Origin: a virus
Lineage: Duplodnaviria > Caudoviricetes
DNA length: 63,357 nucleotides
IMG/VR virus record: IMGVR_UViG_3300025000_000098
Location: 1-63,357 of that record
Direction: 5' to 3' (one strand)
This document shows positions 6,954 through 62,640 of this stretch, piece by piece. The position numbers and the translations under genes are program-made. How positions within the stretch are numbered: the stretch's first letter is position 1; the number at the start of each line of letters is the position of its first letter. Under the pieces are notes generated by a model. The model ran no database searches. It had not been told where the DNA came from and saw only the letters and a list, made by a program, of their open reading frames with translations.

Positions 6954-7622
6954 TCATTTGCCGTTGTAATAAAATGTTACAGTGTTCGACTTATTGCCGT
7001 AGGGCGCATGTAAGTATACGCCGTGATGAGAAGTTCCTGTATCGGCGTCACCTTCTCCGTTCGGACCCAGGCCAGGTTTGAAAACAAAACCCTTGCGATC
7101 TCCGGAAGATTCTCGGTAATTATGGTAGGGGTCTTTGATGATGAAGGTCTGGCCGTTGGCGAAGACTATCTTCATGTTTGGGCCGAAGTCCGGCCCCTGC
7201 TCGGGGATACGCCAGGCCTTACGACCTCCGTTACGCTCACCGTAGCTCGTATAGGTTTTCTTGTATTTGTATCCTGTGGTGGGTGTAGAAGGGTTGGACG
7301 GAGTAGAACTTCCGGAAGTCGCAGTATAGGTCTTCCCGTCGGACATCTTGATCACGAACTTCAGCGGCCTGAGGTATGCATCCCCATCCTTGTCAAGCAA
7401 GAACACCGGGCAGCCTTTATACGGCACGCCGCGGCTGGCTACTTCACCATTGACTGAGACGGCTGTTATCTGGGCGTCCCGCAGAGTCCGGAAGAGGACC
7501 GCGGCTTTCTGGTTGTTCTGGTCAGCCGATTTCTCGAAGGTGATCTTATGGGGGAAGGTTGTGGAAGGGGGTGTCGTCCCTCCCTCAGTGAATGTCGTTC
7601 CGCATTTAGGGCAGGTTGGCAT
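6954..7622 (-). CDS. Hypothetical two-domain protein
   Basis: 222 aa, CPKC N-terminus, Thr/Pro linkers. Confidence 0.7.
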   Translation of the reverse strand: MPTCPKCGTTFTEGGTTPPSTTFPHKITFEKSADQNNQKAAVLFRTLRDAQITAVSVNGEVASRGVPYKGCPVFLLDKDGDAYLRPLKFVIKMSDGKTYTATSGSSTPSNPSTPTTGYKYKKTYTSYGERNGGRKAWRIPEQGPDFGPNMKIVFANGQTFIIKDPYHNYRESSGDRKGFVFKPGLGPNGEGDADTGTSHHGVYLHAPYGNKSNTVTFYYNGK

Positions 7623-8039
7623 TTACTCAATCTCCTCTACGATAATCTCGTCGGCGAGTTCTTCCTCGACCGTGTCGACTTCGTCTATGACTACTTCATC
7701 AGGGGCTGGAGGCGGTGTCATAGGCTCTGGCTTTACTTCTTGGTTGTTGGAGTCCTTTACAGAATTATCGATTTTGACTGGCTTGAGGACGTTAGGGGTT
7801 ATCCGATCGAGTAAACTGCCTGCAGCCCCTACAGACCCGTCTCCAATAGGCAGGGTAGCATTTTGCTCACCATCAAGCTCTCCTTTACTGTCTGCAGCGG
7901 AGATGAGCGTGCCGTTACCTTCGTTATGGTTCTCAATGTCAACAAGATATAACGTCCCACACCCACCCAAAAAGAAACATCCTGTTACAATAGCGATCAG
8001 CCCGATCTTCGCTGCACTGCTCTCCGCTCTCCGCATCAT
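7623..8039 (-). CDS. Putative lipoprotein with acidic tail
   Basis: Hydrophobic stretch ending FFLGGC; RBS AGGAGA. Confidence 0.65.
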   Translation of the reverse strand: MMRRAESSAAKIGLIAIVTGCFFLGGCGTLYLVDIENHNEGNGTLISAADSKGELDGEQNATLPIGDGSVGAAGSLLDRITPNVLKPVKIDNSVKDSNNQEVKPEPMTPPPAPDEVVIDEVDTVEEELADEIIVEEIE

Positions 8040-8052
8040 CTCATTTCTCCTT

Positions 8053-8154
8053 TTAGTAGATTGTTCCTGCTATAAAATTGTATACTGTCGATACAAGGAC
8101 CACAAGCATTATTGCCCAGTACGACAACTCTTCGTGATGTTTTTCAAACCGCAT
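8053..8154 (-). CDS. 33-aa membrane micro-protein
   Basis: MRFEKHHEELSYWAIMLVVLVSTVYNFIAGTIY; RBS AGGTG. Confidence 0.45.
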   Translation of the reverse strand: MRFEKHHEELSYWAIMLVVLVSTVYNFIAGTIY

Positions 8155-8239
8155 TCTTTCACCTATGTAAATCCATGTATAATTCTATGGCTTTTTCAAC
8201 TAACATGAAAATCTCCTTTTGATTGATAGTAATTTCTTA

Positions 8240-10039
8240 TCAATCACGCATCCAGCCGTAGCCTGTTCTGGGGGCGAGGTTGCCTGATGTGCGGATACTG
8301 CCGTGGTAGTATGGGCCGAAGAATCCTTCTCTGATAAAGTCGTTCACTGGGCTGGGCATGATTCTACTATCCCAGTTGTAACGATTCTGCGCCCTGGCCA
8401 AGGCAATAAATGCGTCAAGCGTGGCGGTCTCGCCTATTGAGGTCATATAGGTTTCGACCGACCTCGTGGTATCAGGAAACGTAGCTTGCTCAAACCTGGA
8501 AGTATCACCTGTACCAGCGGCCCACTCAGCATTGGTTTTAATATCTGCGTTAAGATAAAACCACGTATCCGCTGTTTTGGTCATGTGGTACTGGTTTCCT
8601 GTAAACGTTACACCGGAGATACTTGCCAATGTTTCAGCATCGACTATATATTTACCTGTCGAGTCGATAGATATTTTATTGCCAGTTAATTCTCCTGTAG
8701 GAGTAAACGAGTTATCTGAGTCAGCATATATTTGGAAAAAATCAGCATTTTTAACATTCCAGATAACATTATTTCTATAGCTGTTACCTCGGTGTGAAAA
8801 CCCGTTGCTGAGAAATTTTGTATCCAGAGTTGCGTCTGTCTGGTGAATCATCAGATTATTATAGAAATCACCGCTATCAACATTCCAGTTGTAGAAAACC
8901 CACGCAATCTCTCTACCTGTGATATTCGACATCCCTGGAGAATGAAAAACATTATTAAAGACCTGCGGATTATAGTGGCCGTGTTGCAAATGCTGGTCGG
9001 ATGCGCCGATTGATATAGCAATATCCCCGTCAATAAAAAGGTTGTTTTCTGCAACAAATCCAACAGTAATGGCATCAGGTTCAGGTGGAGCTGAGTTCGA
9101 TTCTTTTATGCTGTTGCTGCTCGGGCGTGCAAAGATATTGTTCCTTATTGCAAGATTATCACTGAGGGTCACGTATAAATTGTGGTTATACGGCGTTGCT
9201 TCCCCCGCCACAACCGGCTCTGTATTGTCTGATACGTTTAACCAGCCATTGTGATCGAAAATGTTTTCCTCAATAATAAAATCCCTAACGTACATTAAAA
9301 ATAAACCCTGCGAGTGGGCTGTTGATCCAGAATAGTTATTCAAAAATGTATTGCGCCGCAGAGTAAAATCTGAAATAGCTCCTTTGTCATAAGCCTGAAT
9401 TGCATTATCTTTAAAAAACCTGAACGAACATCCCTCTATCAATACCGAGTGCATTACCCTGCCAGGCCCAGCATACCACCAAAGCCCTTGGAAATTTGTG
9501 CCATTCACATAATCAGGCGAAGCCGGATCACGGACAGAGGCGTAAAAACTAATCCCAGATATCGCAAAATATTGTGTATCCAAGCTGGATGTCGTCCGTC
9601 CAAATACCTGCGAGTCGTAAACGGATGGAGGTTTAAACACAGGCATATCGCCGAGGCCATATGCGGCTATAACGGCAGGTTCGCTCTCGCTTTTACCGCT
9701 CCTGATCGAGCCAAACGTTACATTGAAGACAGACCCCCGTTTTATTAAAATCCAATCCGGGTCGCCAGTTGCTGTTTTCGATATCGCGGTTGCCATGGTC
9801 GCACACGGAATGACTGTGCCCGCAGGGTTGAAAGGATCAGGCCCCATGGTCTCGCTCGACGTACGATAACTGATACACGTAGTATCATTCCCAGAAACAG
9901 TATCGACATATACAACATCGGTGTCAGCAGATGGAGTGAATATTGTCCACCCGGCTGTGTCTTTTGGTAGATTTAGCTGTCCAGCGTGTGAGACGTGGCA
10001 AAGAAGCACCACGGCTGCAATTTGCAAAAGGACTTTCAT
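8240..10039 (-). CDS. Right-handed beta-helix (pectin-lyase-like) protein with signal peptide
   Basis: Asn-ladder repeats IEENIFDHN, IRNNIFAR, AENNLFID; N-terminal MKVLLQIAAVVLLCHVSHA. Confidence 0.8.
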   Translation of the reverse strand: MKVLLQIAAVVLLCHVSHAGQLNLPKDTAGWTIFTPSADTDVVYVDTVSGNDTTCISYRTSSETMGPDPFNPAGTVIPCATMATAISKTATGDPDWILIKRGSVFNVTFGSIRSGKSESEPAVIAAYGLGDMPVFKPPSVYDSQVFGRTTSSLDTQYFAISGISFYASVRDPASPDYVNGTNFQGLWWYAGPGRVMHSVLIEGCSFRFFKDNAIQAYDKGAISDFTLRRNTFLNNYSGSTAHSQGLFLMYVRDFIIEENIFDHNGWLNVSDNTEPVVAGEATPYNHNLYVTLSDNLAIRNNIFARPSSNSIKESNSAPPEPDAITVGFVAENNLFIDGDIAISIGASDQHLQHGHYNPQVFNNVFHSPGMSNITGREIAWVFYNWNVDSGDFYNNLMIHQTDATLDTKFLSNGFSHRGNSYRNNVIWNVKNADFFQIYADSDNSFTPTGELTGNKISIDSTGKYIVDAETLASISGVTFTGNQYHMTKTADTWFYLNADIKTNAEWAAGTGDTSRFEQATFPDTTRSVETYMTSIGETATLDAFIALARAQNRYNWDSRIMPSPVNDFIREGFFGPYYHGSIRTSGNLAPRTGYGWMRD

Positions 10040-11696: not shown

Positions 11697-13091
11697 TCAT
11701 GCTGGATTGTAAGCTGGTGAGTCATCTGGATTATACATTAAGCTGTCGTCAGGGTTTACTGCCTGTTCTATTTCACTCGGAGGCAACACTTGCACCCCCG
11801 GCACATATTTCAGTATCTCAGCATCCGCGCAGGATTTGTTCCAGATCTGGATCATCCGCACATAGGTTTCATGCAGCGTGCCGAGGAAAATCTGAAAACT
11901 CTCAATCGGGTCAAACTTGCCATCAGAGGTTTCGAGACTGCTCCAAACTATTGACGCATCATCTGGTGACATATCGGGATTGTACAGCCTGCTGCCGACC
12001 TGAAACTGTGTGCCGTCTGCACTCGTCCTCATGCAGACAAGGAGAGGTTCGCCATCATTGACAGAGGCTGCCATGCTGGCGTAGTTTGCTCCTCCATCGT
12101 TACTCACCACCGTCATCGACGACCCTGATTTGGCCATGCCGAGAGGTACATATCCTGCAACTCCATTAGCGGCCATAACTGGGATGTTGAAGGTGTTATC
12201 GGGGAGGTCAGCACCGTTGAATCCGGGAACTATCAAGCAGGCCACGGTCATAACTGCCTTACCGAAAACAGCAGATGTTCCTATGGTTTTCGCATACGGC
12301 ATCAGCGAGCCAGTGCGAGTTAGATTCTCCCTCGTCATTGCAAACGTCCGAGCAGACTGTCCTACATATTTGATGACGCTGAAACTCGTTCCAGCACCTG
12401 TAGCTGCGCGAGAGGTTGAAACTCTGTAGACACTGCCGGAAACAAGCTCCACTGTGGCAGGGGTAGTAATGAAGGTTGAGTTCATCACAAAACCGAAATC
12501 TCCGGTACTGCTGGATGTCCCAACAACAGGCGCACCGCCGTCATCCATGCGAATGTAGACAGAGAAAATCTGTGCCGTAGCTACATTATCCACCGGCTGC
12601 GAGGCGTATCTCTGAACCGAGTTGTTACCGAAAACCACAACATTATCAGCAAATGCGGCCATCTCGCCGCTTGCTGCTGCAATGGATACATTCAGGTTTG
12701 AAGGTACGTGCGCCAGTAAGCTCGGTTCTGAATATGGAATAAACTGTGTATAAATCCCAGAACCGAGCGCAGCCAGTTCCGCCTCGGTCATGACCTTGCT
12801 GATCTCCTGCCCCGCTGCAACCTGCCCGCCGATACCCCAGAGATAACCTTCAGGGGAGAAATAGACGTGCGGGCCGGGTGAGTCTACGCCGTCTCGGTCT
12901 GGGGTGTCGGCTGTCTCGCTGTAAGTGAGAGGGTCTCCCTTGCGAGGGCGAAGGGCGTTGGTGTCTATGACTGTCGGAGAGAGGGAGTAATAGTAGAGCA
13001 GGTCTGCTGGATACGGCGAAGCGGCCGGAGAGAGCGGCCCCCCACCAGCCGCAGAGAAAACGTCAGCAAAGGGGTTGTAGAACTTACTCAC
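11697..13091 (-). CDS. Putative virion or receptor-binding protein
   Basis: About 464 aa, beta-rich, likely GTG start at 13091. Confidence 0.6.
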   Translation of the reverse strand: MSKFYNPFADVFSAAGGGPLSPAASPYPADLLYYYSLSPTVIDTNALRPRKGDPLTYSETADTPDRDGVDSPGPHVYFSPEGYLWGIGGQVAAGQEISKVMTEAELAALGSGIYTQFIPYSEPSLLAHVPSNLNVSIAAASGEMAAFADNVVVFGNNSVQRYASQPVDNVATAQIFSVYIRMDDGGAPVVGTSSSTGDFGFVMNSTFITTPATVELVSGSVYRVSTSRAATGAGTSFSVIKYVGQSARTFAMTRENLTRTGSLMPYAKTIGTSAVFGKAVMTVACLIVPGFNGADLPDNTFNIPVMAANGVAGYVPLGMAKSGSSMTVVSNDGGANYASMAASVNDGEPLLVCMRTSADGTQFQVGSRLYNPDMSPDDASIVWSSLETSDGKFDPIESFQIFLGTLHETYVRMIQIWNKSCADAEILKYVPGVQVLPPSEIEQAVNPDDSLMYNPDDSPAYNPA

Positions 13092-13401
13092 TGATTTCCA
13101 CCAGGGCGACGCCGATGGTGGCACCTACAGACTCAGTCTTGACGAACTGCAGCATGACAGGCGATGGGATGGTAAGGGGTTGGGAGGTGGCTGAGATAAC
13201 CACTGCGTCGCCGGCGGCGTCGTAAAGGGGCAGTACTGCCGAGGCTGTGCCATCTGCCGCCAGAGCGGTGACGATGTTGACTGCGATGGTGTTGGCCCCG
13301 AACGGCCCTACTGCGTGGATGGTCTTCGGGAAGGGTCCACGGGTGAGGTGAATAACCTCGGAAGTTTTGGCTGTGGTCTGCGGGTCGATGATAAAGCCCA
13401 T
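13084..13401 (-). CDS. Small virion-type protein
   Basis: RBS AAGGAG; 105 aa beta-rich. Confidence 0.65.
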   Translation of the reverse strand: MGFIIDPQTTAKTSEVIHLTRGPFPKTIHAVGPFGANTIAVNIVTALAADGTASAVLPLYDAAGDAVVISATSQPLTIPSPVMLQFVKTESVGATIGVALVEISE

Positions 13402-13421
13402 GGTATCTCCTTGAAATTACT

Positions 13422-13946
13422 TCAGAAGTTGATCTGTATGTTGATCTGGCCTGTGGATGAAGTATCCGTGCCGGTGTCTTTCGTCGGTTCGAGTTTGCCC
13501 CAGCGCACTACAGATTGAATCGCATTCAACCGGGTGCTGGCTGGGGTCTTGTCGTCTTGGATCATCTCGTCGATGTCCGTCAGGTAAGACTCGGCAAGGA
13601 CCTTGGCTTTGGCGGCAAAGGGCACGCCGTTCTCCCGCACGTCCCGCATGGTCATGGCCAGCTCCCGACGGAATGTAGGGACTGAGGACAGGATGTCGTA
13701 CTCTGCTGGGGTGATGTCGTACCTCTCAAGGATCTCCCCCAAGCCGTCCACACCGATAGCCAGGTCGAGGATCATCCTCGGGTCCCAGGCGTTAGCGGCA
13801 GGAGATTCCGCTTTCAGTGCTTTTTGGACGGCTCGGAGAGAGAGGGGGGAGGGAGGGAGCTGCGGAGACCACGACTCGCTGTCGTCGGAGGAGAATATCC
13901 CCTCGAAGTCTGAGTCCAGCAGGTCGTTGAGAGTAGAGGTATCCAT
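13422..13946 (-). CDS. Putative terminase small subunit
   Basis: First late gene; helical, TPASTRLNA motif, C-terminal INIQINF strand. Confidence 0.55.
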   Translation of the reverse strand: MDTSTLNDLLDSDFEGIFSSDDSESWSPQLPPSPLSLRAVQKALKAESPAANAWDPRMILDLAIGVDGLGEILERYDITPAEYDILSSVPTFRRELAMTMRDVRENGVPFAAKAKVLAESYLTDIDEMIQDDKTPASTRLNAIQSVVRWGKLEPTKDTGTDTSSTGQINIQINF

Positions 13947-13988
13947 ATCACAGGGGATACAACAAAATGTTACATATTGCAAGAGGAA

Positions 13989-14005
13989 AGTATCGGGAGG
14001 TTACT
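13989..14005. promoter_or_regulatory. 17-bp palindromic operator-like site
   Basis: AGTATC-gggag-GTTACT upstream of the terS-like gene; partial site at 13958-13974. Confidence 0.55.
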
Positions 14006-14361
14006 TTTTGTGGTGGTCTGACTTTTATTTACTTCGTTTCTGTACTGGTGAGGTTGTTAGGATTTTTGTTGTTTGGTTTACAACTTTTAGAGGGGGGAGG
14101 TCAAAATTTTTGGTGTTGCTGGGTTTTTACTTTGTGTAGCTTGGTTTACGGTTTTTGGGGTTCTGGGGAGGAAATTTGTCAGGGTTTATGGTAAGTAAGC
14201 GAAATTACATTGTTTTGTCGGATTTTTGGTTTTAGGTGTGTGGGAGCATGAAAGAAGGCACGGCCCCCGCGCAGCACAGCCCCCATCGGCCTTCCTAGAA
14301 AACATCTTTTTCCTGCACACCTGGCGCGCGGACCACATAGAGCTGCAGCACTATAACATTC

Positions 14362-14417
<56 letters not shown>

Positions 14418-14499
14418 ATCCGGGAAGTATCCCCCGAGATACAGTAAACAGAACAACACAAAGAAAACAACTAAAAGTGTAAACGGGCTATCTTTTTAT

Positions 14500-14528
14500 T
14501 TGACATAACGAGTATGCTTTGCTATGAT
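14500..14528 (+). promoter_or_regulatory. Sigma70-type early promoter
   Basis: TTGACA-17-TATGAT with A-rich upstream sequence. Confidence 0.85.
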
Positions 14529-14580
14529 AAGGCATAGGATAAAGAAAGGCTGTAACAAACCTTAACAATGGAGTGAGACT

Positions 14581-14724
14581 ATGACAATAACAAAGAACAT
14601 CAACGGCTACTATGTCATATCCGACATAGTAAGGGGACATCTTTTTACTCGTGTATACGCTGGATACACTAAATGCGAAGCTATACGACTGTTTAAACAG
14701 GACGTTAAAAAGGTAAACTCATGA
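14581..14724 (+). CDS. 47-aa early micro-protein
   Basis: RBS GGAG; MTITKNINGYY...; ATGA overlap with next ORF. Confidence 0.7.
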   Translation: MTITKNINGYYVISDIVRGHLFTRVYAGYTKCEAIRLFKQDVKKVNS

Positions 14725-14801
14725 TACTAGAACTCACTGAACAAGATATCGAGGAAGCTTTACAAGCAATTCAACCTTATTTGATTGAGGCGACGAGATG
14801 A
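14721..14801 (+). CDS. 26-aa acidic micro-protein
   Basis: MILELTEQDIEEALQAIQPYLIEATR; ATGA overlaps at both ends. Confidence 0.6.
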   Translation: MILELTEQDIEEALQAIQPYLIEATR

Positions 14802-14875
14802 AGTACTTCCTGTTAATCCTCTTGTGGAGTTTAGTCCCTGGCTATTATCTTTTAAACGCTTTATTGAATGGGTGA
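14798..14875 (+). CDS. 25-aa membrane micro-protein
   Basis: MKYFLLILLWSLVPGYYLLNALLNG; RBS GAGG. Confidence 0.6.
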   Translation: MKYFLLILLWSLVPGYYLLNALLNG

Positions 14876-14879
14876 TGAA

Positions 14880-14999
14880 ATGAAAACAACCTTGATCCGA
14901 TCCGCCTTGAAAAAGCTTCTTAAACAATCCGGTTACTACCGGTTATCCGTGCAAGCTCGCTTGCATCTGGTTCACTATTATATATTTGAGGTGCGCTAA
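14880..14999 (+). CDS. 39-aa basic micro-protein
   Basis: MKTTLIRSALKKLLKQSGYYRL...; RBS GGTG. Confidence 0.55.
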   Translation: MKTTLIRSALKKLLKQSGYYRLSVQARLHLVHYYIFEVR

Positions 15000-15127
15000 T
15001 GAGAGACTATGAACAATTATTGATCCCTGACCATTATCTCCCTGAATACATCGACACGCCGGACGACGAGATGGAGCTGGTAATTGAGGAAGACGAGGAA
15101 GTTGTTTACGAATTAAATTTTGATTGA
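14999..15127 (+). CDS. 42-aa highly acidic micro-protein
   Basis: RBS GAGGTG, TAATG overlap; MRDYEQLLIPD...EEDEEVVYELNFD. Confidence 0.65.
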   Translation: MRDYEQLLIPDHYLPEYIDTPDDEMELVIEEDEEVVYELNFD

Positions 15128-15139
15128 AGAGGATAAATC

Positions 15140-15403
15140 ATGGCTGAAAAATACCCAAACCGCTGCACGTTCTATGTATCTCCGAGGATCGAAAACAATG
15201 AACCGATGGGTGATACTCCCTTCTGGAAATGGTTACAGAAAAACAAGCATAAACGGTTTGTTGAAACTTTGAAAGAATACCTTGCCCCGCAGGGCTTTGA
15301 CATTACCAAGCATGTCCTGGAGGAAGATCAGATTGCGAACCATAAATGTACATATGAGCATTTTTGGTGGTGTTATTATGATAAGAAAAAAGGAGGTAAG
15401 TGA
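15140..15403 (+). CDS. Hypothetical early protein
   Basis: RBS GAGGA; 87 aa. Confidence 0.75.
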   Translation: MAEKYPNRCTFYVSPRIENNEPMGDTPFWKWLQKNKHKRFVETLKEYLAPQGFDITKHVLEEDQIANHKCTYEHFWWCYYDKKKGGK

Positions 15404-15612
15404 TTATGAAAACAGGTGATAGAGTAAACACACCGGACGGCCTTGGTACAATCAAAGACGTTGAACAGCTTGAAGACCACAGAGGGTCTGGAAAAATGGT
15501 TTACACTGGCCGGTATGGTGTGCTGCATGATGTGTTCCCGAAAGGCAAACCGCGGCATCTCTACAAAGATGACATACTGTACTACGTAGAGCGGGAACTG
15601 ACTATGATCTAA
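15400..15612 (+). CDS. Small SH3-like-barrel hypothetical protein
   Basis: RBS AGGAGGT; MKTGDRVNTPDGLGTI pattern. Confidence 0.7.
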   Translation: MIMKTGDRVNTPDGLGTIKDVEQLEDHRGSGKMVYTGRYGVLHDVFPKGKPRHLYKDDILYYVERELTMI

Positions 15613-15629
15613 AGTATTGATGGATTGCA

Positions 15630-15654
15630 GGGGATCGACAACGGTCCCTTGTTA
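15630..15654 (+). terminator. Hairpin, possible terminator or processing site
   Basis: GGGATCG-acaa-CGGTCCC followed by TTGTT. Confidence 0.45.
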
Positions 15655-15689
15655 CTGCAGGGAAATTAAAATTTATGGAGGATAAAATC

Positions 15690-15983
15690 ATGGCCGACAG
15701 AATAACCCAAAAAGACCTGGAGCAGATGGTGCGGAGGATAAACGAGACCTTGGGCCGACCTTTGGAGACCTATACCAAAGACGAGGACACAGGGAGGTAT
15801 AAGGCCAATATCGGTAATTTTCACCTGTCCGGCGCGTATGGCGGCGTAGCCCTGGAAGAAATGGAGAGCGAAAGCGGCGGAGTCCGGCGCGTATCCACAG
15901 GCGGCTACGGCACGAAACGCGAACTGTACAGGTGGATGGACGCGTATTTGAGGGGGATCGAGCAGAGCCGGGAGAACGAATAG
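15690..15983 (+). CDS. Hypothetical early protein
   Basis: RBS GGAGGA; 97 aa. Confidence 0.75.
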   Translation: MADRITQKDLEQMVRRINETLGRPLETYTKDEDTGRYKANIGNFHLSGAYGGVALEEMESESGGVRRVSTGGYGTKRELYRWMDAYLRGIEQSRENE

Positions 15984-16220
15984 AGTAACAAAATGTTACA
16001 CTGAATGTATACTCCTGATACACGCCTCGGAAATGCCTAACAAAGTCAGTTTTTAGGGGTGTGTATCAGGATGTTACTAGGTTTTGTATGCGGAGTTACA
16101 ATGGGTCATTTTGACCCACCAAGGGTGCCGTAAAAATGTTGCACCTAGTTGGGAAAAATTCTCAGGGTTGTGTGATTTCACTACTTTTTCGTGTTACTGG
16201 GGGTGTATAGTGACGATACA
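15984..16220. promoter_or_regulatory. Cluster of four 17-bp palindromic sites (candidate origin or control region)
   Basis: Sites start at 15984, 16006, 16062 and 16204 in a ~700-bp non-coding gap. Confidence 0.6.
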
Positions 16221-16631
16221 CTGGAGGGCAAAAAAAGGCAAAAATCGGAAAATTTAGCAGGTCCGGTTTACAGAACTGACAACATGTGTATATAAGGGCG
16301 GAGAGTCGTCTAAAAGTTAGGCGATTTTTGCGGATGCCCAGCGGGATTGGGGTACAGAGGAAAAATGTGCTTTAGTAGTAGTAGATATCTTTTATGAATA
16401 CATATAATAAGACATTTTTTTCTCGTTTTTTCGTGGAGCGCTCCGCCTGCACACCCGCACCCTCCAGAAATTCTCAATTCCTGTCTCTACCTTGAAAAAC
16501 TGTATTATTATACTAGTTGGCGTAGTTCCGTGCTTTTTTGATGATAAAATATGGGCACCCTAACACCACCACACGCTAGTTGCCGGAATTATGGCAGAAA
16601 AACAAAACAGACAACACACGTATATAATCTC

Positions 16632-16660
16632 TTGACAACCCTACTCCATTGCTGTACTAT
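16632..16660 (+). promoter_or_regulatory. Sigma70-type promoter
   Basis: TTGACA-17-TACTAT with TG upstream of the -10. Confidence 0.8.
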
Positions 16661-16702
16661 ACAGACATACAGTAACATAACTTTACATAGGAGAGTAAAG
16701 AC

Positions 16703-17287
16703 ATGGGATCAACCACCTTCACCATCAAATCCTTACCTAAACTGGATAAACTCGCTGAAACCCTGTGCAACTACAACATCCCTTGGGAGATGGTCCGGAC
16801 TGATCGAGAAATAACTTTATCTACCGAAGATCTAAAGCGTGTGCAGGAAGAAATACCGTTGAATATCAGGTTATCTTTTCCACCGTCAGTATTTTCATAC
16901 TGTAACAACCTCGGAGAGAAGGCCGGCGACACCTGGACCCCACAATACTCCCGCTGGAGACACGGCGGATGGTACGTGAACAACGTCAGGCACAAAAGTG
17001 GAGCCTGTGGCTGCGTCAGTAACAATTACGACGACAAAAAGTGGCGGATCGTCTGCGGAGATGAGAACCTTACGTTCTCCACAAGAGACGAGGCTGCAAG
17101 GGCCGAAAAACTGCTTGCCGACGCCAGCAACGAACAAAAAGCAGAGCGCGGCTGGTGGACGCTGACCACTACAGGCGTAACCGAACTTACTGACGCCGAC
17201 CTTGAGCACATTGCCGCCCTTATTAAGGAAGGCTACCAGTCCGGAGAGCTTGTCCATGAGCCAGAAGGGAGGGAGGACTTCGTATGA
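16703..17287 (+). CDS. Hypothetical modular protein
   Basis: RBS AGGAGA; 194 aa. Confidence 0.75.
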   Translation: MGSTTFTIKSLPKLDKLAETLCNYNIPWEMVRTDREITLSTEDLKRVQEEIPLNIRLSFPPSVFSYCNNLGEKAGDTWTPQYSRWRHGGWYVNNVRHKSGACGCVSNNYDDKKWRIVCGDENLTFSTRDEAARAEKLLADASNEQKAERGWWTLTTTGVTELTDADLEHIAALIKEGYQSGELVHEPEGREDFV

Positions 17288-17766
17288 CCCGCATCAACCT
17301 AGTCGAGCCAGCGGAGCTGTGCGACCAGCACTTGATAGCCGAGTGGCGCGAGCTGACAAGAATACCCAACGGTATAGTAGCTGGTAAATACACTGTCAAC
17401 CTGGCGGAGATCCCAGAGCACTACACCGTCAGGACGGAGGACAACCCGGACGGAGGCAAGGGGCACGTGAAGTTCTTCCTCAACAAGTTGAGGTTCCTGT
17501 CGTATCGGTACGAAGCAATCCGGGAGGAACTGTCTCAGAGAAACCTTGCCAGCCGCAGCATGTGGCCGGTGCTTAGTAATGGGTACTTCAAACTGCACTG
17601 CCTCTGGTAAGACTACACACCGACACCCGAAGCTCTTGCGCTCAACCGTAAGCGCATAGCAGAGCGGATGCCTAAACAACCGAGGTACGCAGGGGAGAAA
17701 ACTATGCCTGATGAGGCCAGTCACTGGCAGCACTGGAGCGGCCAGGACACAGAGGCCGTAGGATGA
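17284..17766 (+). pseudogene. denV: Pyrimidine-dimer DNA glycosylase (T4 endonuclease V-like) with in-frame TAA at 17608-17610
   Basis: MTRINL..EL.DQHL.AE.REL and GHVKFF motifs; similarity continues past the stop as DYTPTPEALALNRKRIAER. Confidence 0.85.
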
Positions 17767-17903
17767 CCATCAACTAAAGGAGGCCCACCATGACCAGCCG
17801 CTAACCCCGGCACCAGTACCCCAAAAACCAATCACATATCGTGCCAATTCACAGCCCTGTCTCTCTCACTGGGAGGCAGGGCACCTTTACAGGAGAGAAA
17901 ACT

Positions 17904-18092
17904 ATGGCTACTAAATTCGTGCAGGAACAACAGCGTCTGGAAAGTGAATATACTCACCGCGGAAGGGTTTTTGCTTCCGGGCATACATTTGCCTACGGTA
18001 ACGGTCGCGGGCTGCGCGGTAAGGCCGCAAAGAAAGCGCAGAAACGGGCGACACATCAGCGGCGGTACTACGCTGCCATGCGCAGTGCATAA
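17904..18092 (+). CDS. Small basic protein
   Basis: RBS AGGAGAG; Arg/Lys-rich C-terminus. Confidence 0.7.
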   Translation: MATKFVQEQQRLESEYTHRGRVFASGHTFAYGNGRGLRGKAAKKAQKRATHQRRYYAAMRSA

Positions 18093-18125
18093 TCCCTAAC
18101 CTCAACCAAGGCAGGAGGTAACACA

Positions 18126-18344
18126 ATGGACAAGCAGCCCACACCGACTGCCGCACATCTGCTTTTCTTTAGAAAGCATTTCTCCTTGAGCCAGGAGGCA
18201 GCCGCCGACCTGGCAGGAGTGTCCCGAGTCACCTGGTCACGCTGGGAGAAAGGCCACACGCCGATCCCTGGCCATATGCTGCACACCCTGAGGGGGATGG
18301 GGCAGCTCTTGAAAGATATTCAGAAGAGGGAGGAAGGGAAATGA
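18126..18344 (+). CDS. XRE-family HTH regulator
   Basis: LSQEAAADLAGVSRVTWSRWEKG. Confidence 0.9.
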   Translation: MDKQPTPTAAHLLFFRKHFSLSQEAAADLAGVSRVTWSRWEKGHTPIPGHMLHTLRGMGQLLKDIQKREEGK

Positions 18345-18577
18345 AGATTGTCACCTTAGCAAACGATTTTCACAATGTTGTAACAACGCTCAGGCCTAAA
18401 AATGGGAGATTGAGTGCACGGCAGGTTAAAAAAGTCAGGAAGGCACTTTGCGGGATTGCCGGATGTTGCTGCGGAGATGCCCTGGGTCGTCGCGGACCTC
18501 AGGAGAATGAGATTGAAGTACTCATTGATAGCCGCACAGGAGAAGTGACCGGGGCACTCGTTTGCGGAGGCAACTAA
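18341..18577 (+). CDS. Hypothetical protein
   Basis: Coupled ORF with LCGIAGCCCG motif. Confidence 0.7.
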   Translation: MKIVTLANDFHNVVTTLRPKNGRLSARQVKKVRKALCGIAGCCCGDALGRRGPQENEIEVLIDSRTGEVTGALVCGGN

Positions 18578-18580
18578 GTC

Positions 18581-18997
18581 ATGACACTCCAAGACACCCT
18601 ACGCCACTTCAGAAACAAGTATGCCCTGACCCGCCCACAAGCCAACGACTTCATGTCGTGGCCCAAGGCTACCTGGACCCATGTGGAGGCAGGCAGGGCA
18701 GAGCCGCCGGACGACATCGAGGAGAAACTCGCACGCCTTGCAACGAAACTCGACCTGGTGATGACCGCACCTGTCAAACGCTGCCCGCACTGCAAGAAAG
18801 ACGTAGCCCGCTGGGCTGCAAACGGAGGCACCCACTGCCCCTACTGTGCCCGGATATTCAGGAGGTCGAAGAAAACCAAGATATTCGTGCACCTCAAACG
18901 CAAACAGCCCAGCGGCACGGATCTGGACCGCAAGGCCCTGGTCGAGCTGGGGTACACTGTTGACTACAAACAGAAGAGAAAAAGGAGGGAGAAATAG
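18581..18997 (+). CDS. HTH-like plus zinc-finger protein
   Basis: LTRPQANDFMSWPKATWTHVEAG; CPHC...CPYC. Confidence 0.7.
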   Translation: MTLQDTLRHFRNKYALTRPQANDFMSWPKATWTHVEAGRAEPPDDIEEKLARLATKLDLVMTAPVKRCPHCKKDVARWAANGGTHCPYCARIFRRSKKTKIFVHLKRKQPSGTDLDRKALVELGYTVDYKQKRKRREK

Positions 18998-19173
18998 TGC
19001 CCTACAAAAGAAAGAAACCCTTTTTCCAAAAATATCAAACCGCTCTTATCAACCTGCTGACCATCCTTGTCTTCGCAACCCTGGTGCTGACTGCGATCAT
19101 GCTGACCCCGAGGGCGATAGAGCATCTGCAAGGTCACGATGTGACCGTAGTCAACGAGGAGGAGAAACGATGA
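18997..19173 (+). CDS. 58-aa membrane protein
   Basis: GTG start after AGGAGG; one transmembrane helix. Confidence 0.55.
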   Translation: MPYKRKKPFFQKYQTALINLLTILVFATLVLTAIMLTPRAIEHLQGHDVTVVNEEEKR

Positions 19174-19358
19174 AACTGTTTTGCAATTGCAACAGTAAGT
19201 GGATAAATTCGCTAAGCCCTAATGCATCACGGCAGCTTGTAGGGCCGGAAACTCGCACAGGGCACACGCTCGGAGGCTGCCCTACTTGTGGACTGCGTTA
19301 CTGGATCGAGGCTGATTACGAGAACATGATGCACGACCTGAAGAGCATGAACACATGA
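19170..19358 (+). CDS. Small Cys-motif protein
   Basis: RBS GGAG; CNC...CPTC. Confidence 0.6.
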   Translation: MKLFCNCNSKWINSLSPNASRQLVGPETRTGHTLGGCPTCGLRYWIEADYENMMHDLKSMNT

Positions 19359-19558
19359 CACCGGCAGAGATAAGAGACCTCCGCCGTATGCTGGGCCGGA
19401 CCCAGCGAGGCATGGCCGACATCATTGAGACCACCAACGTAACCTGGGGCCGGTGGGAGAGGGGGGAGACCGTCCCCCTGCCGGTCTTTGAGGAGAAACT
19501 GCAAAAACTCTTCGCTTTTGCGAAGAAACAGGAAGAGGAGGGAGAGAATGAACTATGA
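19355..19558 (+). CDS. XRE-family HTH regulator
   Basis: MTPAEIRDLRRMLGRTQRGMADIIETTNVTWGRWERG. Confidence 0.9.
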   Translation: MTPAEIRDLRRMLGRTQRGMADIIETTNVTWGRWERGETVPLPVFEEKLQKLFAFAKKQEEEGENEL

Positions 19559-19946
19559 CCAACTGAAAAGATACGACCTGACGCCGGATGAAGCCCGACT
19601 CATACTGGACTGGTTTGAGGCCGCTGCGTCAAAAGCGTTGGAAGACGGTATTAGGCTTGTCCAAAAAGACTACGTCCTCGCCGGAGCCCTTTACAAATTC
19701 AGAGGCCAGCAACCGCCGCCAAGACTCCGCCATTTAATTCCTGCGGAATCTCCTCAAACCCTCCCAGCCGGTCAGATGCACCGATGGTTGCTCGACCACA
19801 AGTACACTCCTGATGATACAGGAGCATGGGTGTCTCCTGACGTTGGCCTTGATTTCATGCCCGGGATGTGGCAATACTGCGGCGGCACCGACCTGGGCGG
19901 CTTCAAGTGGCCGCCTGAATGGTTCGTGAAGGGGGAAAGCGCGTGA
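19548..19946 (+). CDS. Hypothetical protein
   Basis: RBS GGAG; coupled ORF. Confidence 0.7.
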   Translation: MNYDQLKRYDLTPDEARLILDWFEAAASKALEDGIRLVQKDYVLAGALYKFRGQQPPPRLRHLIPAESPQTLPAGQMHRWLLDHKYTPDDTGAWVSPDVGLDFMPGMWQYCGGTDLGGFKWPPEWFVKGESA

Positions 19947-23420: not shown

Positions 23421-23450
23421 GTTGACATAAAGTTGTCAACCGTGTAACAT
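23421..23450 (+). promoter_or_regulatory. Promoter with overlapping inverted repeat
   Basis: TTGACA-17-TAACAT; GTTGACA-N6-TGTCAAC spans the -35. Confidence 0.7.
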
Positions 23451-32239: not shown

Positions 32240-32280
32240 TTATTTGTTAAGTCCCGATACACTACTCACGTGGAGGCTCA

Positions 32281-48127: not shown

Positions 48128-48144
48128 TGTAACGCGACTATACA
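48128..48144. promoter_or_regulatory. 17-bp palindromic site
   Basis: TGTAAC-gcgac-TATACA in a 40-bp intergenic gap, within a minus-strand TTGAAA promoter candidate. Confidence 0.6.
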
Positions 48145-48151: not shown

Positions 48152-48598
48152 TCAAAAATAGAAAAGCTGTATATAGTCCAGCGAGAAACTGCAGCCGTTG
48201 GTGTTGGAGATGGTAAAGTCCCAGTATCGTCCTTTTACATTGCGGTCGAGCTGCACCCGGACCCTTTGTTGCTTCGTACCGTTGAGCACTACCGGGTACT
48301 CCCTCACTGTCTCGAGGTCGGTTGTCACTGTCAACAGCAGATCGTCGGTTGCCTCAAGGCCGAAGTACACATACCGGATACGCCGGTACATCTCCCCCAA
48401 GTCAACGGCTGCCAGGGTTGCATAAGCGTCGATCTCAACCGTATCGTCGGTCGCGCCGCAGAGCACCTTGTAGAGACCGGTCGGCCCAGCACCGAGCACC
48501 AAGCCATTGAACCGAGCCATGGAGGTGCAGTTCAGACCTGTCTGCTGAGCTGAGGCCGGTCCGGATGGGCCGCGAAGATTTGTAATTACCGTCTGCAT
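48152..48598 (-). CDS. Tail structural protein
   Basis: 148 aa beta-rich; KGRYWDF motif; tail module. Confidence 0.6.
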   Translation of the reverse strand: MQTVITNLRGPSGPASAQQTGLNCTSMARFNGLVLGAGPTGLYKVLCGATDDTVEIDAYATLAAVDLGEMYRRIRYVYFGLEATDDLLLTVTTDLETVREYPVVLNGTKQQRVRVQLDRNVKGRYWDFTISNTNGCSFSLDYIQLFYF

Positions 48599-60021: not shown

Positions 60022-60036
60022 GGTAAAATCCTCCTA

Positions 60037-60662: not shown

Positions 60663-60692
60663 ACTATACACGACTGGTTTAGGATTTGTCAA
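60663..60692 (-). promoter_or_regulatory. Promoter upstream of HNH gene
   Basis: TTGACA-18-TATAGT. Confidence 0.65.
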
Positions 60693-60728
60693 GTTACTCA
60701 TTGCGGTAGCCTCAGTAAAATCGCCTAA

Positions 60729-61730
60729 TTACAGCTCTGGGATGGCACACTCACAGCAAGCCATCCAAAGTTGTTGTAAAATCAGGGCTGCGAAGTAGGA
60801 TTTCCAGCCGATGTGGCCGCGCTGCCCGAGCTTGTCAGAGTCGCTGACAACGCCGGGGTTCTTGACGAACGGAGTCAGGGCGGTAACGCCCTTGAGCGGA
60901 GTGACGGCCGCACAGTTGGCTGCGATGTAGATCACCGGGTAAACATCGGAGTTGGTGCCGGTGGTGGAGATCATGGTCGTGCCGGACCCAGCCTTGGCTG
61001 CGCCAGCATCTGCCCAAGGGGTGAAGACGGTGGAGGTGAGATATCGCACCGGTCCAACAGAGCCGATCTCGGTCGGATAGGCGGTCATCGAGCCGTAGTC
61101 AACCACGTCCTTGAAGCCTGACATCTTCTGAATCACGTCCTCGAGGTCAGGATGGACAAAGCCGATGAACCCGGGCTTGACGTTGACGGTCTCCATCATC
61201 GCAGAAGACGACAGCTTCTTGGTGATGTTGCTGGCGTTCTGGCGCTTGAACCCGCGGGTGATCTTCTGCTGCAGGGTCTTGGTCAGGGTCGTGTTGACAT
61301 GCGCCCGCTCGGTGCCGGTGGCAAAATACCGGTTGGTGCCTGCTCGCATAACGTAGAACAGTTTGGTCTCAACAGAGAGAGCCGCCTGCTTGGCCAGGAT
61401 GTCGCTGTATTCCTTGATGACCGGATCTTCGTGGGTATCGGCCACGCGGTCGGTAATGCCTACCCAGTCGCCGATCTGCGCGAGGGTGGCCTGGTAATCG
61501 GTGCTGGTGATCGCGCTGCCGGGAGGAGTTACGCCCTCAGTAAGATCAGCAGTAGCTGCGGCAAGGGCTTCGTACCGGCGGAACTTGATGGTGTCCGAAG
61601 CGTTCTTCGGGATGGGTTTGGTCTGCAGGAAGGGCTGCATAACCAGATCGGGGTCGGCCCGCTCTAAAAGATCTACTGCAACATACCCTGCGGTTCGCAG
61701 TCCAATGTCACTTACTGTCTGGGTCGTCAT
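60729..61730 (-). CDS. Major capsid protein (N4-gp56-like)
   Basis: IKFRRY..L, LTEGVTP, EIGSV..VRY, DKLGQRG..GWK. Confidence 0.92.
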   Translation of the reverse strand: MTTQTVSDIGLRTAGYVAVDLLERADPDLVMQPFLQTKPIPKNASDTIKFRRYEALAAATADLTEGVTPPGSAITSTDYQATLAQIGDWVGITDRVADTHEDPVIKEYSDILAKQAALSVETKLFYVMRAGTNRYFATGTERAHVNTTLTKTLQQKITRGFKRQNASNITKKLSSSAMMETVNVKPGFIGFVHPDLEDVIQKMSGFKDVVDYGSMTAYPTEIGSVGPVRYLTSTVFTPWADAGAAKAGSGTTMISTTGTNSDVYPVIYIAANCAAVTPLKGVTALTPFVKNPGVVSDSDKLGQRGHIGWKSYFAALILQQLWMACCECAIPEL

Positions 61731-61748
61731 GGTTTCGTACCTCCGTTA

Positions 61749-62588
61749 TTAATGCTTGGTTGAGGCTGCGCGGAACGCTCCTTCGAAGTCGTTCTCGTCT
61801 ATGCCTCCCTTTTGTGCCACCTGCCGGGTACGAACTCCCTCTTGGGAGCGCAACTTACGTTCCTTAGTGGCTTTGGCCTCGGCATCTTCAGGCGGAGGGA
61901 GAGGAGGTACTTGTGCGCTACCAGTCTCCTTCTTGAAGATGTCGTATAACTTTATGGTTTGGGCTGCTGTGCCCTTATCAAGGACTGCGTTGTAGGAGTC
62001 CTGCAAAAACTCGGGCTGGGTCTTGACCCACTCTTCCACCTTGGGCAGAAGCTCTCCGGCGTCGCTGTGGGCTCCAAGCACCGCAGTCATGAACCGATCG
62101 TGGGCTACCGTCTGGGCTACGTTGATCGCAGGGGCGAAGCTCTGGGAGAGTTTGGTTTCAAGTTCGGCGATCTTCGCCATGAACTTATTCTCAACCTGAG
62201 CGATGGTTACTCGCTTGACGGAATCGAGGAGGGTGCGGATTTCGGGGAAATTGGCATTGACGCTGTCGAGCAGGACAGTCTCTTCCTCGGTGAACGCCTC
62301 GTCGGCCGTGACTACAGGCGCAGGCGGTTCGGGAGTAGGCTCTGGTTTGGCCGGCTCAGGAGGCGGAGGAGGTGCTACAACGACAGGATCAGGTTTGGCG
62401 GCCTCGACGACAGGAGGCTCCGGAACGACAGGGTCAAGTACGGGCGCAACCCCAGCATCCGAGAGGTCGGCACTTTCGGCCGGGGAGGTATCTTCAACTA
62501 CCGGCTCTTCAAGTCCGGCGGCGGCTTCGAAGGCCACTGCAAACTCGTCTTTTGTCAACCCGGTATCATCATTTACTTCTTCGGACAT
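61749..62588 (-). CDS. Scaffolding protein
   Basis: Acidic Pro-rich N-terminus, ends DFEGAF, directly upstream of capsid gene. Confidence 0.7.
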   Translation of the reverse strand: MSEEVNDDTGLTKDEFAVAFEAAAGLEEPVVEDTSPAESADLSDAGVAPVLDPVVPEPPVVEAAKPDPVVVAPPPPPEPAKPEPTPEPPAPVVTADEAFTEEETVLLDSVNANFPEIRTLLDSVKRVTIAQVENKFMAKIAELETKLSQSFAPAINVAQTVAHDRFMTAVLGAHSDAGELLPKVEEWVKTQPEFLQDSYNAVLDKGTAAQTIKLYDIFKKETGSAQVPPLPPPEDAEAKATKERKLRSQEGVRTRQVAQKGGIDENDFEGAFRAASTKH

Positions 62589-62610
62589 ATACTCCTCCTA
62601 GTTTGTTGGC

Positions 62611-62640
62611 ATAGTAACAAGAATATACATATATTGTCAA
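62611..62640 (-). promoter_or_regulatory. Late promoter with embedded 17-bp palindrome
   Basis: TTGACA-18-TACTAT with TGn; AGTAAC-aagaa-TATACA at 62613-62629. Confidence 0.7.

What the first reader, a model, noticed from the sequence alone, without database searches (positions are those of the whole stretch)
6965..62629. Genome-wide 17-bp palindrome, WGTAWM-N5-KWTACW: candidate phage regulon
Seen, by start position: 6965 TGTAAT-aaaat-GTTACA; 8079 TGTATA-ctgtc-GATACA; 13958 TACAAC-aaaat-GTTACA (partial); 13989 AGTATC-gggag-GTTACT; 14551 TGTAAC-aaacc-TTAACA; 14652 TGTATA-cgctg-GATACA; 15984 AGTAAC-aaaat-GTTACA; 16006 TGTATA-ctcct-GATACA; 16062 TGTATC-aggat-GTTACT; 16204 TGTATA-gtgac-GATACA; 16671 AGTAAC-ataac-TTTACA; 32245 TGTTAA-gtccc-GATACA; 48128 TGTAAC-gcgac-TATACA; 62613 AGTAAC-aagaa-TATACA. 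The spacer varies freely while half-sites and spacing hold. Most sites are non-coding or just upstream of a start: downstream of both early promoters, over the -10 region of late promoters, and ahead of the primase gene. Inference: one dimeric regulator controls early, replication and late genes in a phage with no visible integrase, possibly a carrier-state or temporal switch. Candidate binders are the HTH proteins at 18126, 18581, 19355 and 31943, or a host factor. I did not scan coding regions exhaustively.
Basis: partly seen in the sequence, partly recalled or inferred. Interest (0 to 1): 0.8.

Follow-up and report, generated by a model that had tools for sequence, protein, structure and literature searches.

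The report
Dispersed operator sites of phage repressor
A 17-base mirror-image DNA word repeated at the control regions of an uncultivated groundwater phage is most likely the docking site of one small phage-made repressor protein that acts on both early and late genes: a familiar kind of switch, used here unusually widely.

Summary
WGTAWM-N5-KWTACW occurs 11 times exactly in the 63,357-bp window, against 0.11 expected. Nine of the 11 lie in the 7.3% of DNA that is non-coding, where 0.023 are expected from its own composition. Only the N5 spacing is enriched.

The motif recurs in divergent relatives at orthologous places with free spacers. It is not enriched in the assembly that holds the closest named relatives (1 match against 4 control). 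The two half-sites choose A or T independently, so it is not a hairpin.

Sites cover the spacer and -10 of a sigma-70-type late promoter and lie just downstream of both early promoters.

Best reading: operators of a phage-encoded Cro/CI-type HTH repressor, most likely the 72-aa product of 18126-18344. In relatives that gene sits directly behind a TTGACA promoter overlapped by the motif.

Binding, dimerisation and the sign of regulation are untested. This is a new member of a known kind. The reach into late promoters, in a phage with no lysogeny genes found, is the unusual part.

The parts
15984..16022 (.). Two exact operators (15984-16000 and 16006-16022), 22 bp start to start with a 5-bp linker, immediately after the stop codon of the last gene of the first early operon
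   Evidence: This pair is the only stretch of the 719-bp non-coding region that aligns with relatives. Relatives carry triple arrays with the same 22-bp phase.
16062..16078 (.). Exact operator in the same non-coding region
16204..16220 (.). Exact operator in the same non-coding region
16632..16660 (+). Early promoter P_E2: TTGACA-17-TACTAT
   Evidence: Promoter scan, 10 of 12
16671..16687 (.). Exact operator about +4 to +21 downstream of P_E2 and 15 nt before the start at 16703
   Evidence: The transcription start position is inferred.
14500..14528 (+). Early promoter P_E1: TTGACA-17-TATGAT
   Evidence: Promoter scan, 11 of 12
14551..14567 (.). One-mismatch operator downstream of P_E1, 13 nt before the start at 14581
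14652..14668 (.). Exact site inside the first small early ORF (14581-14724); role unknown
13958..14005 (.). Divergent control region: a two-mismatch site (13958-13974) and an exact site (13989-14005) bracket a TTGCAA hexamer upstream of the first late-arm gene
   Evidence: Relatives have an operator at the same gene: G003 38662 and G001 9647 with one mismatch.
62611..62640 (-). Late promoter of the scaffold and major-capsid genes: TTGACA-18-TACTAT with TG before the -10
   Evidence: Promoter scan, 10 of 12
62613..62629 (.). Exact operator starting 5 nt after the -35. Its last 4 nt are the first 4 nt of the -10.
   Evidence: Relatives have an operator at the same position with different spacers.
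62650..62666 (.). One-mismatch site 9 nt upstream of that -35, in the 3' end of the upstream ORF
   Evidence: It is exact in the G003 clade. Coding constraint cannot be excluded.
48128..48144 (.). Exact operator 16 nt before the start of the 370-aa late gene (46999-48111)
   Evidence: G002 has a site at the orthologous place and G001 has a plain promoter there. No promoter is called by the scan.
48223..48239 (.).
8079..8095 (.). Exact operator 39 nt before the start at 8039, in a 200-bp intergenic gap
   Evidence: The -35/-10 assignment is my weak inference and is not called by the scan.
6965..6981 (.). One-mismatch site 12 nt before the start of the peptidase gene (6272-6952)
32245..32261 (.). 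One-mismatch site 19 nt before the primase start; doubtful
   Evidence: No counterpart in G001 or G002.
18126..18344 (+). HTH-A: a 72-aa XRE/Cro-CI-type HTH protein and the best candidate binder
   Evidence: Pfam HTH_31 30.2 bits (cut-off 27) and HTH_3 28.1 bits (cut-off 23). AF2 pLDDT 90.9, four helices. Co-occurs with the motif. In relatives its own promoter is overlapped by the motif.
19355..19558 (+). HTH-B: a 67-aa paralogous XRE HTH protein and alternative binder
18581..18997 (+). 138-aa protein with an HTH and a possible zinc ribbon; weaker alternative binder
   Evidence: Only 25% matches in relatives.

Best explanation
The 17-bp dyad is the operator of a phage-encoded Cro/CI-type (XRE) helix-turn-helix repressor. 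Each half of a dimer would read one WGTAWM half-site.

The most likely binder is the 72-aa product of 18126-18344 (about 0.55 within this reading).

At late promoters the site fills the -35/-10 spacer and covers the first four bases of the -10. This is clear at 62613, conserved in relatives, and inferred at 48128, 8079 and 13958. Binding there should keep sigma-70 RNA polymerase off.

At the two early promoters the site lies between the start of transcription and the ribosome-binding site (14551, 16671). Binding there should block escape or elongation. P_E2 heads the gene string that contains 18126, so this would be negative feedback.

The phased pair at 15984/16006 (22 bp, about two helical turns) suggests cooperative binding.

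What is shown: the motif, its enrichment, its conservation, its promoter geometry, and its association with the HTH gene.

What is inferred: the binding itself, dimerisation, and repression rather than activation.

Speculative: how late promoters are released. My guess is titration of a self-limited repressor as genome copies, and hence operators, multiply.
For: Statistics.

Conservation in phages whose shared genes are only about 65-80% identical in DNA:
- G003 has 10 exact sites against 0 control.
- The G003-clade fragments G020 and G023 have 3 and 4.
- 48 metagenome loci (227,503 nt) chosen by HTH-A similarity hold 81 exact sites against 0 for the reversed control.

Footprint at the scaffold/capsid promoter: 16 of 33 loci could be placed. 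Eight of the 16 have an exact operator at TTGACA+5 with differing spacers and half-site types. The other 8 have a 2-mismatch remnant.

In the 719-bp non-coding region, only the operator pair aligns with relatives.

Geometry:
- The scan calls promoters at 14500, 16632 and 62640.
- 10 of 97 sites with up to 1 mismatch, from 10 sources, have a TTGAC hexamer ending 2-6 nt upstream, against about 1.1 expected. These cover four distinct promoter positions, including one in an unrelated data set (L192).

Not a hairpin: 0 of 11 window sites are perfect inverted repeats. Positions 5 and 13 are complementary in 6 of 11 window sites and in 22 of 47 pooled unique sites.

Not a host regulon in the assembly holding 84-87% capsid relatives: 1 match against 4 control in 4.2 Mb.

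HTH-A:
- XRE HTH by Pfam. Nearest solved relatives are PezA, Aca3, Aca2, P22 C2 and MqsA.
- All 7 viral contigs with 58-59% HTH-A homologues carry 2-7 exact sites, control 0.
- In those 7 the gene follows TTGAC(A/T)-N14-operator-RBS directly. The operator is exact in 4 of 7 and has 2 mismatches in 3 of 7.
- The HTH-A profile scores 108 bits or more in 5 of 13 viral records. Each of these has at least one exact site, with no more than one for the control. It finds no match, or only a 22-bit match (G027), in the 8 viral records without enrichment.
- No plus-strand terminator-like or further promoter-like site lies between P_E2 and 18126.
Against: No binding, dimer or expression data exist. The homodimer prediction could not be run because the queue was full.

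G001-type phages carry an HTH-A with the same recognition helix, yet they have 0-1 exact sites and 1-2 relaxed ones. Their HTH-A promoter lacks the operator. So the gene does not by itself predict a large regulon.

The co-occurrence is confounded by shared ancestry. HTH-B is present in the same phages.

In the window only one late promoter passes the scan. None is called at 48128 or 8079.

Two exact sites are in coding DNA (14652, 48223).

Two promoter-like sites with a perfect -35 (23422 and 60692) have no operator.

A repressor of late promoters, in a phage with no lysogeny genes found, has no demonstrated release mechanism.

The host assignment behind the no-host-regulon argument is tentative.
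Confidence: 0.7

Rival explanations
1. The sites are operators of a phage protein, but the binder is another one. Candidates are the paralogous 67-aa HTH-B (19355-19558), the 138-aa HTH plus zinc protein (18581-18997), or an unrecognised DNA-binding protein. Alternatively HTH-A and HTH-B share the sites as CI and Cro do.
For: HTH-B is 38% identical to HTH-A over 42 aa and has a similar recognition helix (TW.RWE.G). It is present in G002, G003 and all seven L144-L150 loci. It is best conserved between the two motif-rich genomes G000 and G003 (51%).
Against: No operator lies next to the HTH-B gene in the window or in relatives, where it abuts the DNA polymerase gene. The five contigs found with HTH-B as query have no motif, but those are only distant matches. 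The 138-aa protein has only 25% matches in relatives.
Confidence: 0.17
2. The protein is not a simple repressor. It acts in both directions, as lambda CI and restriction-modification controller proteins do (both recalled). It would activate from sites upstream of the -35 (13989, 62650) and repress from sites over the -10, giving a concentration-dependent delay.
For: Two late promoters have operators bracketing the -35: 13989 with 13958, and 62650 with 62613. Controller proteins are among the structural neighbours of HTH-A (C.Kpn2I, C.BclI).
Against: The bracket distances differ (31 and 37 bp centre to centre), so there is no common phase. The upstream site at 62650 lies in coding DNA and is absent in the G002 clade. 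The promoters already have near-consensus -35 elements and 17-18-bp spacers, so they need no activator.
Confidence: 0.15
3. A host transcription factor binds the sites, and the phage has plugged its promoters into a host regulon.
For: The host is unknown, so a matching host regulon cannot be ruled out everywhere. The motif superficially resembles GTA-N8-TAC (NtcA) and TGTAAA-N6-TTTACA (TyrR) boxes, both recalled from memory.
Against: No enrichment in the four assemblies that hold capsid relatives: 1 against 4, 10 against 11, 4 against 8, and 9 against 5 for the control. Site number varies greatly among close relatives: G000 27 and G003 25, against G001 10 and G002 5, with up to 1 mismatch. The spacing is one base off both recalled boxes, and only N5 is enriched. 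The motif overlaps the promoter of a phage HTH gene in relatives.
Confidence: 0.06
4. The palindromes act as RNA or DNA hairpins: terminators, processing sites or translational operators.
For: Several sites lie 12-39 nt before start codons, next to ribosome-binding sites. Those downstream of early promoters would be transcribed.
Against: 0 of 11 window sites and 5 of 47 pooled sites are perfect 6-bp inverted repeats. Pairing at positions 5/13 is at chance level. No T tract follows. Rfam finds nothing in the window. Sites over the -10 would not be transcribed from that promoter.
Confidence: 0.02

Closest known systems
Lambdoid Cro/CI repressors with 17-bp operators in tandem arrays (OR, OL). 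Features recalled from memory, not from a call.
   Same: Small XRE-type HTH protein. 17-bp dyad operators with a free centre. Tandem operators a few bases apart (5-bp linkers here; triple arrays in relatives). Operators overlap core promoter elements. Autoregulation.
   Different: No divergent cI-type gene, integrase or other lysogeny function was found. Operators are also scattered at late-gene promoters. The arrays lie after an early operon and about 700 bp before the regulator's promoter.
Aca2, the anti-CRISPR-associated autorepressor of Pectobacterium phage ZF40 (PMC6765145; abstract and passages read)
   Same: HTH-A passes Pfam's Aca2_YdiL cut-off (25.2 against 23.8 bits), and Aca2 is its top fold match. 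In both cases a dimeric HTH shuts off a strong sigma-70 promoter through inverted repeats in the promoter and 5' UTR.
   Different: The Aca2 repeats are TTCG-N6/8-CGAA. Aca2 is about 116-125 aa with its own dimerisation domain, whereas HTH-A is 72 aa and matches only profile positions 6-57 of 118. Aca2 controls one operon, not a genome-wide set.
Stoperators of cluster A mycobacteriophages (PMC9283540; only the title and start of the abstract seen in the search listing)
   Same: One phage repressor with numerous binding sites distributed across the genome. Some sites lie downstream of promoters, where they can stop elongation.
   Different: Those sites are asymmetric and read by a monomer, and the phages are temperate. 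Here the site is a dyad and no lysogeny genes were found.
P1 C1 repressor with operators dispersed over the prophage genome (recalled from memory, not from a call)
   Same: A single repressor controls many separate operons through a 17-bp site in a phage that does not integrate.
   Different: The P1 operator is asymmetric. P1 has plasmid maintenance functions, and none was recognised here.

Membership tests
Cro/CI-type (XRE) HTH repressor with its operators | Candidate binder has an HTH_3/HTH_31 domain | tested here: met
   18126-18344: HTH_31 30.2 bits (cut-off 27) and HTH_3 28.1 bits (cut-off 23). The model has four helices at pLDDT 90.9.
Cro/CI-type (XRE) HTH repressor with its operators | Dyad-symmetric operator with fixed half-site spacing | tested here: met
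   11 exact sites against 0.11 expected. Only the N5 spacing is enriched.
Cro/CI-type (XRE) HTH repressor with its operators | Operators overlap or closely follow core promoter elements | tested here: met
   Met at 62640, 16632 and 14500 and in relatives. Not shown for 48128 and 8079.
Cro/CI-type (XRE) HTH repressor with its operators | The regulator's own promoter carries the operator (autoregulation) | tested here: met
   In relatives, TTGAC(A/T)-N14-operator sits directly before the gene: exact in 4 of 7, 2 mismatches in 3 of 7. In the window, the operator at 16671 follows P_E2, which heads the gene string containing 18126. It is absent from the G001 promoter.
Cro/CI-type (XRE) HTH repressor with its operators | The protein forms a dimer | not tested
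   The homodimer prediction was never accepted by the queue.
Cro/CI-type (XRE) HTH repressor with its operators | Sequence-specific binding of the protein to the site | not testable with these tools
   Needs EMSA, footprinting or DAP-seq.
Aca2 (PF08965) | Score above the Pfam gathering cut-off | tested here: met
   25.2 bits against a cut-off of 23.8
Aca2 (PF08965) | Full-length architecture with the Aca2 dimerisation domain | tested here: not met
   The match covers profile positions 6-57 of 118, and the protein is only 72 aa.
Aca2 (PF08965) | Operator TTCG-N6-CGAA (PMC6765145, passage read) | tested here: not met
   The sites here are WGTAWM-N5-KWTACW.
Mycobacteriophage stoperator system | Asymmetric site read by a monomeric repressor (PMC9283540, title and start of abstract) | tested here: not met
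   Both halves fit the same half-site consensus.
Mycobacteriophage stoperator system | Many sites dispersed across the genome | tested here: met
   11 exact sites and 27 with up to 1 mismatch, between 2175 and 62650
Lambda-type OR/OL region (features recalled) | Tandem 17-bp operators flanked by divergent cI and cro genes | tested here: not met
   Tandem operators are present (15984/16006). No convincing ORF lies on either strand in 15984-16702, and no CI-like protein was found.
Host CRP/NtcA-type GTA-N8-TAC sites (motif recalled) | N8 spacing between GTA and TAC, and a host regulon | tested here: not met
   The spacing here is N9: GTAW-N7-WTAC occurs 18 times against 6 for GTAW-N6-WTAC. There is no enrichment in the four candidate assemblies.

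The most novel reading that the evidence does not exclude
A non-integrating phage that looks virulent gates nearly its whole transcription programme with one Cro-sized repressor. That includes otherwise constitutive sigma-70 late promoters.

This could work in two ways. It could be a replication-coupled timer: a self-limited repressor is titrated as operator-bearing genome copies multiply, which releases the late genes. Or it could be a global silencer that allows a carrier state without any integrase.

The operator set at late promoters has been gained and lost lineage by lineage. G000 and G003 are rich in sites, and G001 and G002 are poor, at the same promoters.
Probability: 0.2. Interest if true: 0.7.

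Novelty: new member of a known kind. Interest (0 to 1): 0.45.

Why it matters
It gives a testable regulatory map for an uncultivated ~63-kb groundwater phage lineage. The map comprises one operator word, its promoters, and a named 72-aa candidate regulator.

The comparison with relatives shows operators appearing and vanishing at orthologous late promoters. That makes it a compact natural case of regulon turnover in phages.

If the same small repressor really holds late sigma-70 promoters in a phage without lysogeny genes, it would be a simple way of timing late expression. No phage polymerase, sigma factor or antiterminator was recognised in this phage.

The operator and repressor pair could also serve as an orthogonal genetic switch.

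Tried and rejected
Dimerisation is untested.
- RNA evidence: 'no RNA holder listed' among the runs that hold the stretch. All six are groundwater DNA runs.
- Rfam and tRNA scans of the window found nothing.
- Megablast of 13000-20000 against phage records found no match. Known phages are only distant: 40% capsid identity or less and 30% polymerase identity or less.
- The word-index search with HTH-A returned only 2 proteins.
- The mixed HTH-A/HTH-B alignment A2 was not accepted as a locus query, so single proteins were used.
- HTH-B as query found only distant loci without the motif, which is uninformative.
- The 102-aa early protein (15675-15983) and the 194-aa protein (16703-17287) do not track the motif. 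The eight records found with them that were searched show no enrichment (0 exact in seven, and 2 against 1 control in G033).
- A 200-aa minus-strand ORF next to the G003 operator cluster looked like a possible CI. It has no Pfam hit.
- The exact 5-mer dyad screen found no alternative motif in G001 or G002.
- The UmuDAb operator, found by a literature word search, has a different architecture (PMC11332147, passages).
- Earlier notes of this scan held nothing for this genome or this protein.
- MerR-type activation (recalled): rejected because the spacers are 17-18 bp and the dyad is off-centre.
- P2 Ogr-type TGT-N12-ACA at -55 (recalled): rejected on both spacing and position.
- Restriction-site or composition artefact: rejected.


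Full report
**What the window is.** The window is a complete IMG/VR virus record of 63,357 bp (CheckV 100%). It has two arms. The minus strand carries the structural, lysis and packaging genes from 13982 to 1 and from 63357 to 40331: portal-like adaptor, large terminase, major capsid, and a 2219-aa virion protein. The plus strand carries early and replication genes from about 14500 to 39970: DNA polymerase, helicase, primase, nucleases and thymidylate synthase. PHROGs scans of the 77 ORFs I chose showed no integrase, RNA polymerase or sigma factor. Cultured phages are only distant relatives. The closest named relatives of the capsid gene (84-87%) lie on small contigs of a Desulfobulbus sp. enrichment assembly. 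No integrated copy was found in the 301 genomes of that order that were searched. The DNA occurs in groundwater metagenome runs. The host is therefore only guessed.

- WGTAWM-N5-KWTACW occurs 11 times exactly, against 0.11 expected. The reversed pattern gives 0.
One exact site (48223) was missed.
- The spacing is specific: 18 for GTAW-N7-WTAC against 0-6 at the other spacings, and 14 against 0, 2, 2 and 0 for N5 against N3, N4, N6 and N7.
- Nine of the 11 exact sites lie in the 7.3% of DNA that is non-coding. Simulations with that DNA's own dinucleotide make-up expect 0.023.

**It is a protein site, not a hairpin.** None of the 11 window sites is a perfect inverted repeat. A or T at position 5 is chosen independently in the two halves: complementary in 6 of 11 window sites and in 22 of 47 pooled unique sites. 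Each half fits WGTAWM on its own. That is what a dimer reading two half-sites predicts, and what a stem does not.

**It is conserved where nothing else is.**
- I fetched three related ~60-kb records whole. Their shared genes are about 65-80% identical in DNA.
- G003 has 10 exact sites and 25 with up to 1 mismatch. G001 has 1 and 10, and G002 has 1 and 5. The reversed controls with up to 1 mismatch are 1, 3 and 3.
- At the promoter of the scaffold and capsid genes, 16 of 33 loci could be placed. Eight have an exact operator at TTGACA+5, each clade with its own spacer and half-site types. The other eight (G001 clade) keep only a 2-mismatch remnant.
- The site before the 370-aa late gene has a counterpart in G002. 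G001 has a plain promoter there.
- Within the 719-bp non-coding stretch 15984-16702, the only part alignable with relatives is the operator pair.

**Where the sites sit.**
- The promoter scan calls two early promoters: 14500 (TTGACA-17-TATGAT) and 16632 (TTGACA-17-TACTAT). It calls one late promoter: 62640, minus strand, TTGACA-18-TACTAT with a TG.
- At the late promoter the operator begins 5 nt after the -35, and its last four bases are the first four of the -10.
- The same layout (TTGAC-N4/5-operator, -10 TACnnT) recurs at other promoters of G003. It also recurs in L192, a contig from another data set.
- At the early promoters the site lies downstream, just before the ribosome-binding site.
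- Four sites cluster after the first early operon. Two of them are 22 bp apart, and relatives have three in that phase.
- The promoters I read at 48128, 8079 and 13958 have weak -35 elements. The scan does not call a minus-strand promoter at 48128 or 8079, and it lists none at 13958.
- The primase site (32245) has a core mismatch and no counterpart in relatives.
- Two promoter-like sites with a perfect -35 (23422 and 60692) lack the motif.

**Who binds.**
- A host factor is unlikely. The assembly holding the closest capsid relatives has 1 match against 4 for the control in 4.2 Mb, and three other assemblies show no excess.
- Three XRE-type HTH proteins are encoded at 18126, 18581 and 19355. 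The ORF at 31943 shows no HTH by any test.
- HTH-A (18126-18344, 72 aa) models confidently as four helices. It resembles PezA, Aca3, Aca2, P22 C2, MqsA and controller proteins.
- All 7 viral contigs with 58-59% homologues carry 2-7 exact motifs, with control 0.
- 48 metagenome loci found by an HTH-A profile hold 81 motifs against 0 for the control. Twenty-three of the 48 hold at least 2.
- The profile scores 108 bits or more in the five motif-bearing records tested. It scores nothing, or 22 bits, in the eight without enrichment.
- In the seven close relatives the gene is a 129-135-aa double-HTH protein. It directly follows TTGAC(A/T)-N14-operator-RBS, with the operator exact in 4 of 7. This is the signature of autoregulation.
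- In the window, P_E2 with its operator heads the gene string that contains HTH-A. No terminator-like site lies between them.

**Weak points.**
- The co-occurrence is confounded by common descent.
- HTH-B (38% identical to HTH-A, similar recognition helix) is in the same phages.
- G001-type phages have the same HTH-A recognition helix but almost no sites, and none at the HTH-A promoter.
- Nothing here shows binding, dimerisation or the sign of regulation. The dimer prediction could not be run.

**Mechanism I commit to.** A phage Cro/CI-type repressor, probably HTH-A as a dimer, occludes the -10 of late promoters. It also blocks early transcription just after initiation, feeding back on its own operon. 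Confidence is 0.7 for the class of mechanism and about 0.55 for HTH-A as the binder. How late genes are released is unknown. Titration by replicated operator copies is my guess. A two-way, controller-protein-like action is the main mechanistic rival.

**Comparison with known systems.**
- It works like lambdoid Cro/CI operators (17 bp, tandem; recalled). It also works like the Aca2 autorepressor (PMC6765145; abstract and passages read), whose repeats (TTCG-N6-CGAA) and architecture differ.
- Dispersed sites recall mycobacteriophage stoperators (PMC9283540; title and start of abstract only) and P1 C1 (recalled). Those sites are asymmetric, and the phages are temperate.
- It is a new member of a known kind. 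The unusual part is the lineage-specific spread of operators to late promoters in a phage with no lysogeny genes found.
- I found no paper describing this motif. The only search aimed at it was, which surfaced an unrelated UmuDAb operator. That is thin evidence of absence from print.

Noticed in passing
window 14362-14415: A perfect tandem repeat of GGCAGACG, 6.8 copies. It lies in the 598-bp non-coding, G/T-rich stretch between the divergent late and early arms.
   Followed up: no
window 16221-16631; L149 5072-5760; L192 125-600: A 400-700-bp AT-rich gene-free stretch lies between an operator cluster and the next operator-bearing TTGAC promoter. It is kept in position in three lineages but not in sequence. 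It could be an origin of replication or an untranslated RNA.
   Followed up: partly
proteins P0003-P0152: The HTH-A-type domain is very often found in tandem: proteins of 300-1000 aa with 4-11 matched stretches. The close relatives carry a double-HTH version (129-217 aa), while the window, L192 and probably G003 have a single domain.
   Followed up: partly
L148 6301-9330: In one relative the DNA polymerase match is split in two (6301-7680 and 8530-9330), with an HNH endonuclease match between the parts (8190-8522). In the window the HNH gene (20083-20682) sits just upstream of an intact polymerase gene.
   Followed up: no
G003 38620-38680 (L042): The first late-arm gene of G003 starts 6 nt after the -10 (TACACT) of its operator-covered promoter. 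The mRNA may therefore be leaderless.
   Followed up: no
window 23422-23450: A promoter-like site (TTGACA-17-TAACAT) whose -35 is part of its own inverted repeat, TTGACATAAAGTTGTCAA. It lies in the 150-bp gap before 23547 and has no WGTAWM operator.
   Followed up: no
window 40331-46990: A 2219-aa minus-strand ORF whose C-terminal ~400 residues match DarB-like antirestriction and helicase families.
   Followed up: no
window 2175-2191 and G003 28149-28165: A one-mismatch copy of the motif (GGTATC-N5-GGATACA) is kept inside the portal-like gene in both genomes. Coding conservation may explain it.
   Followed up: no
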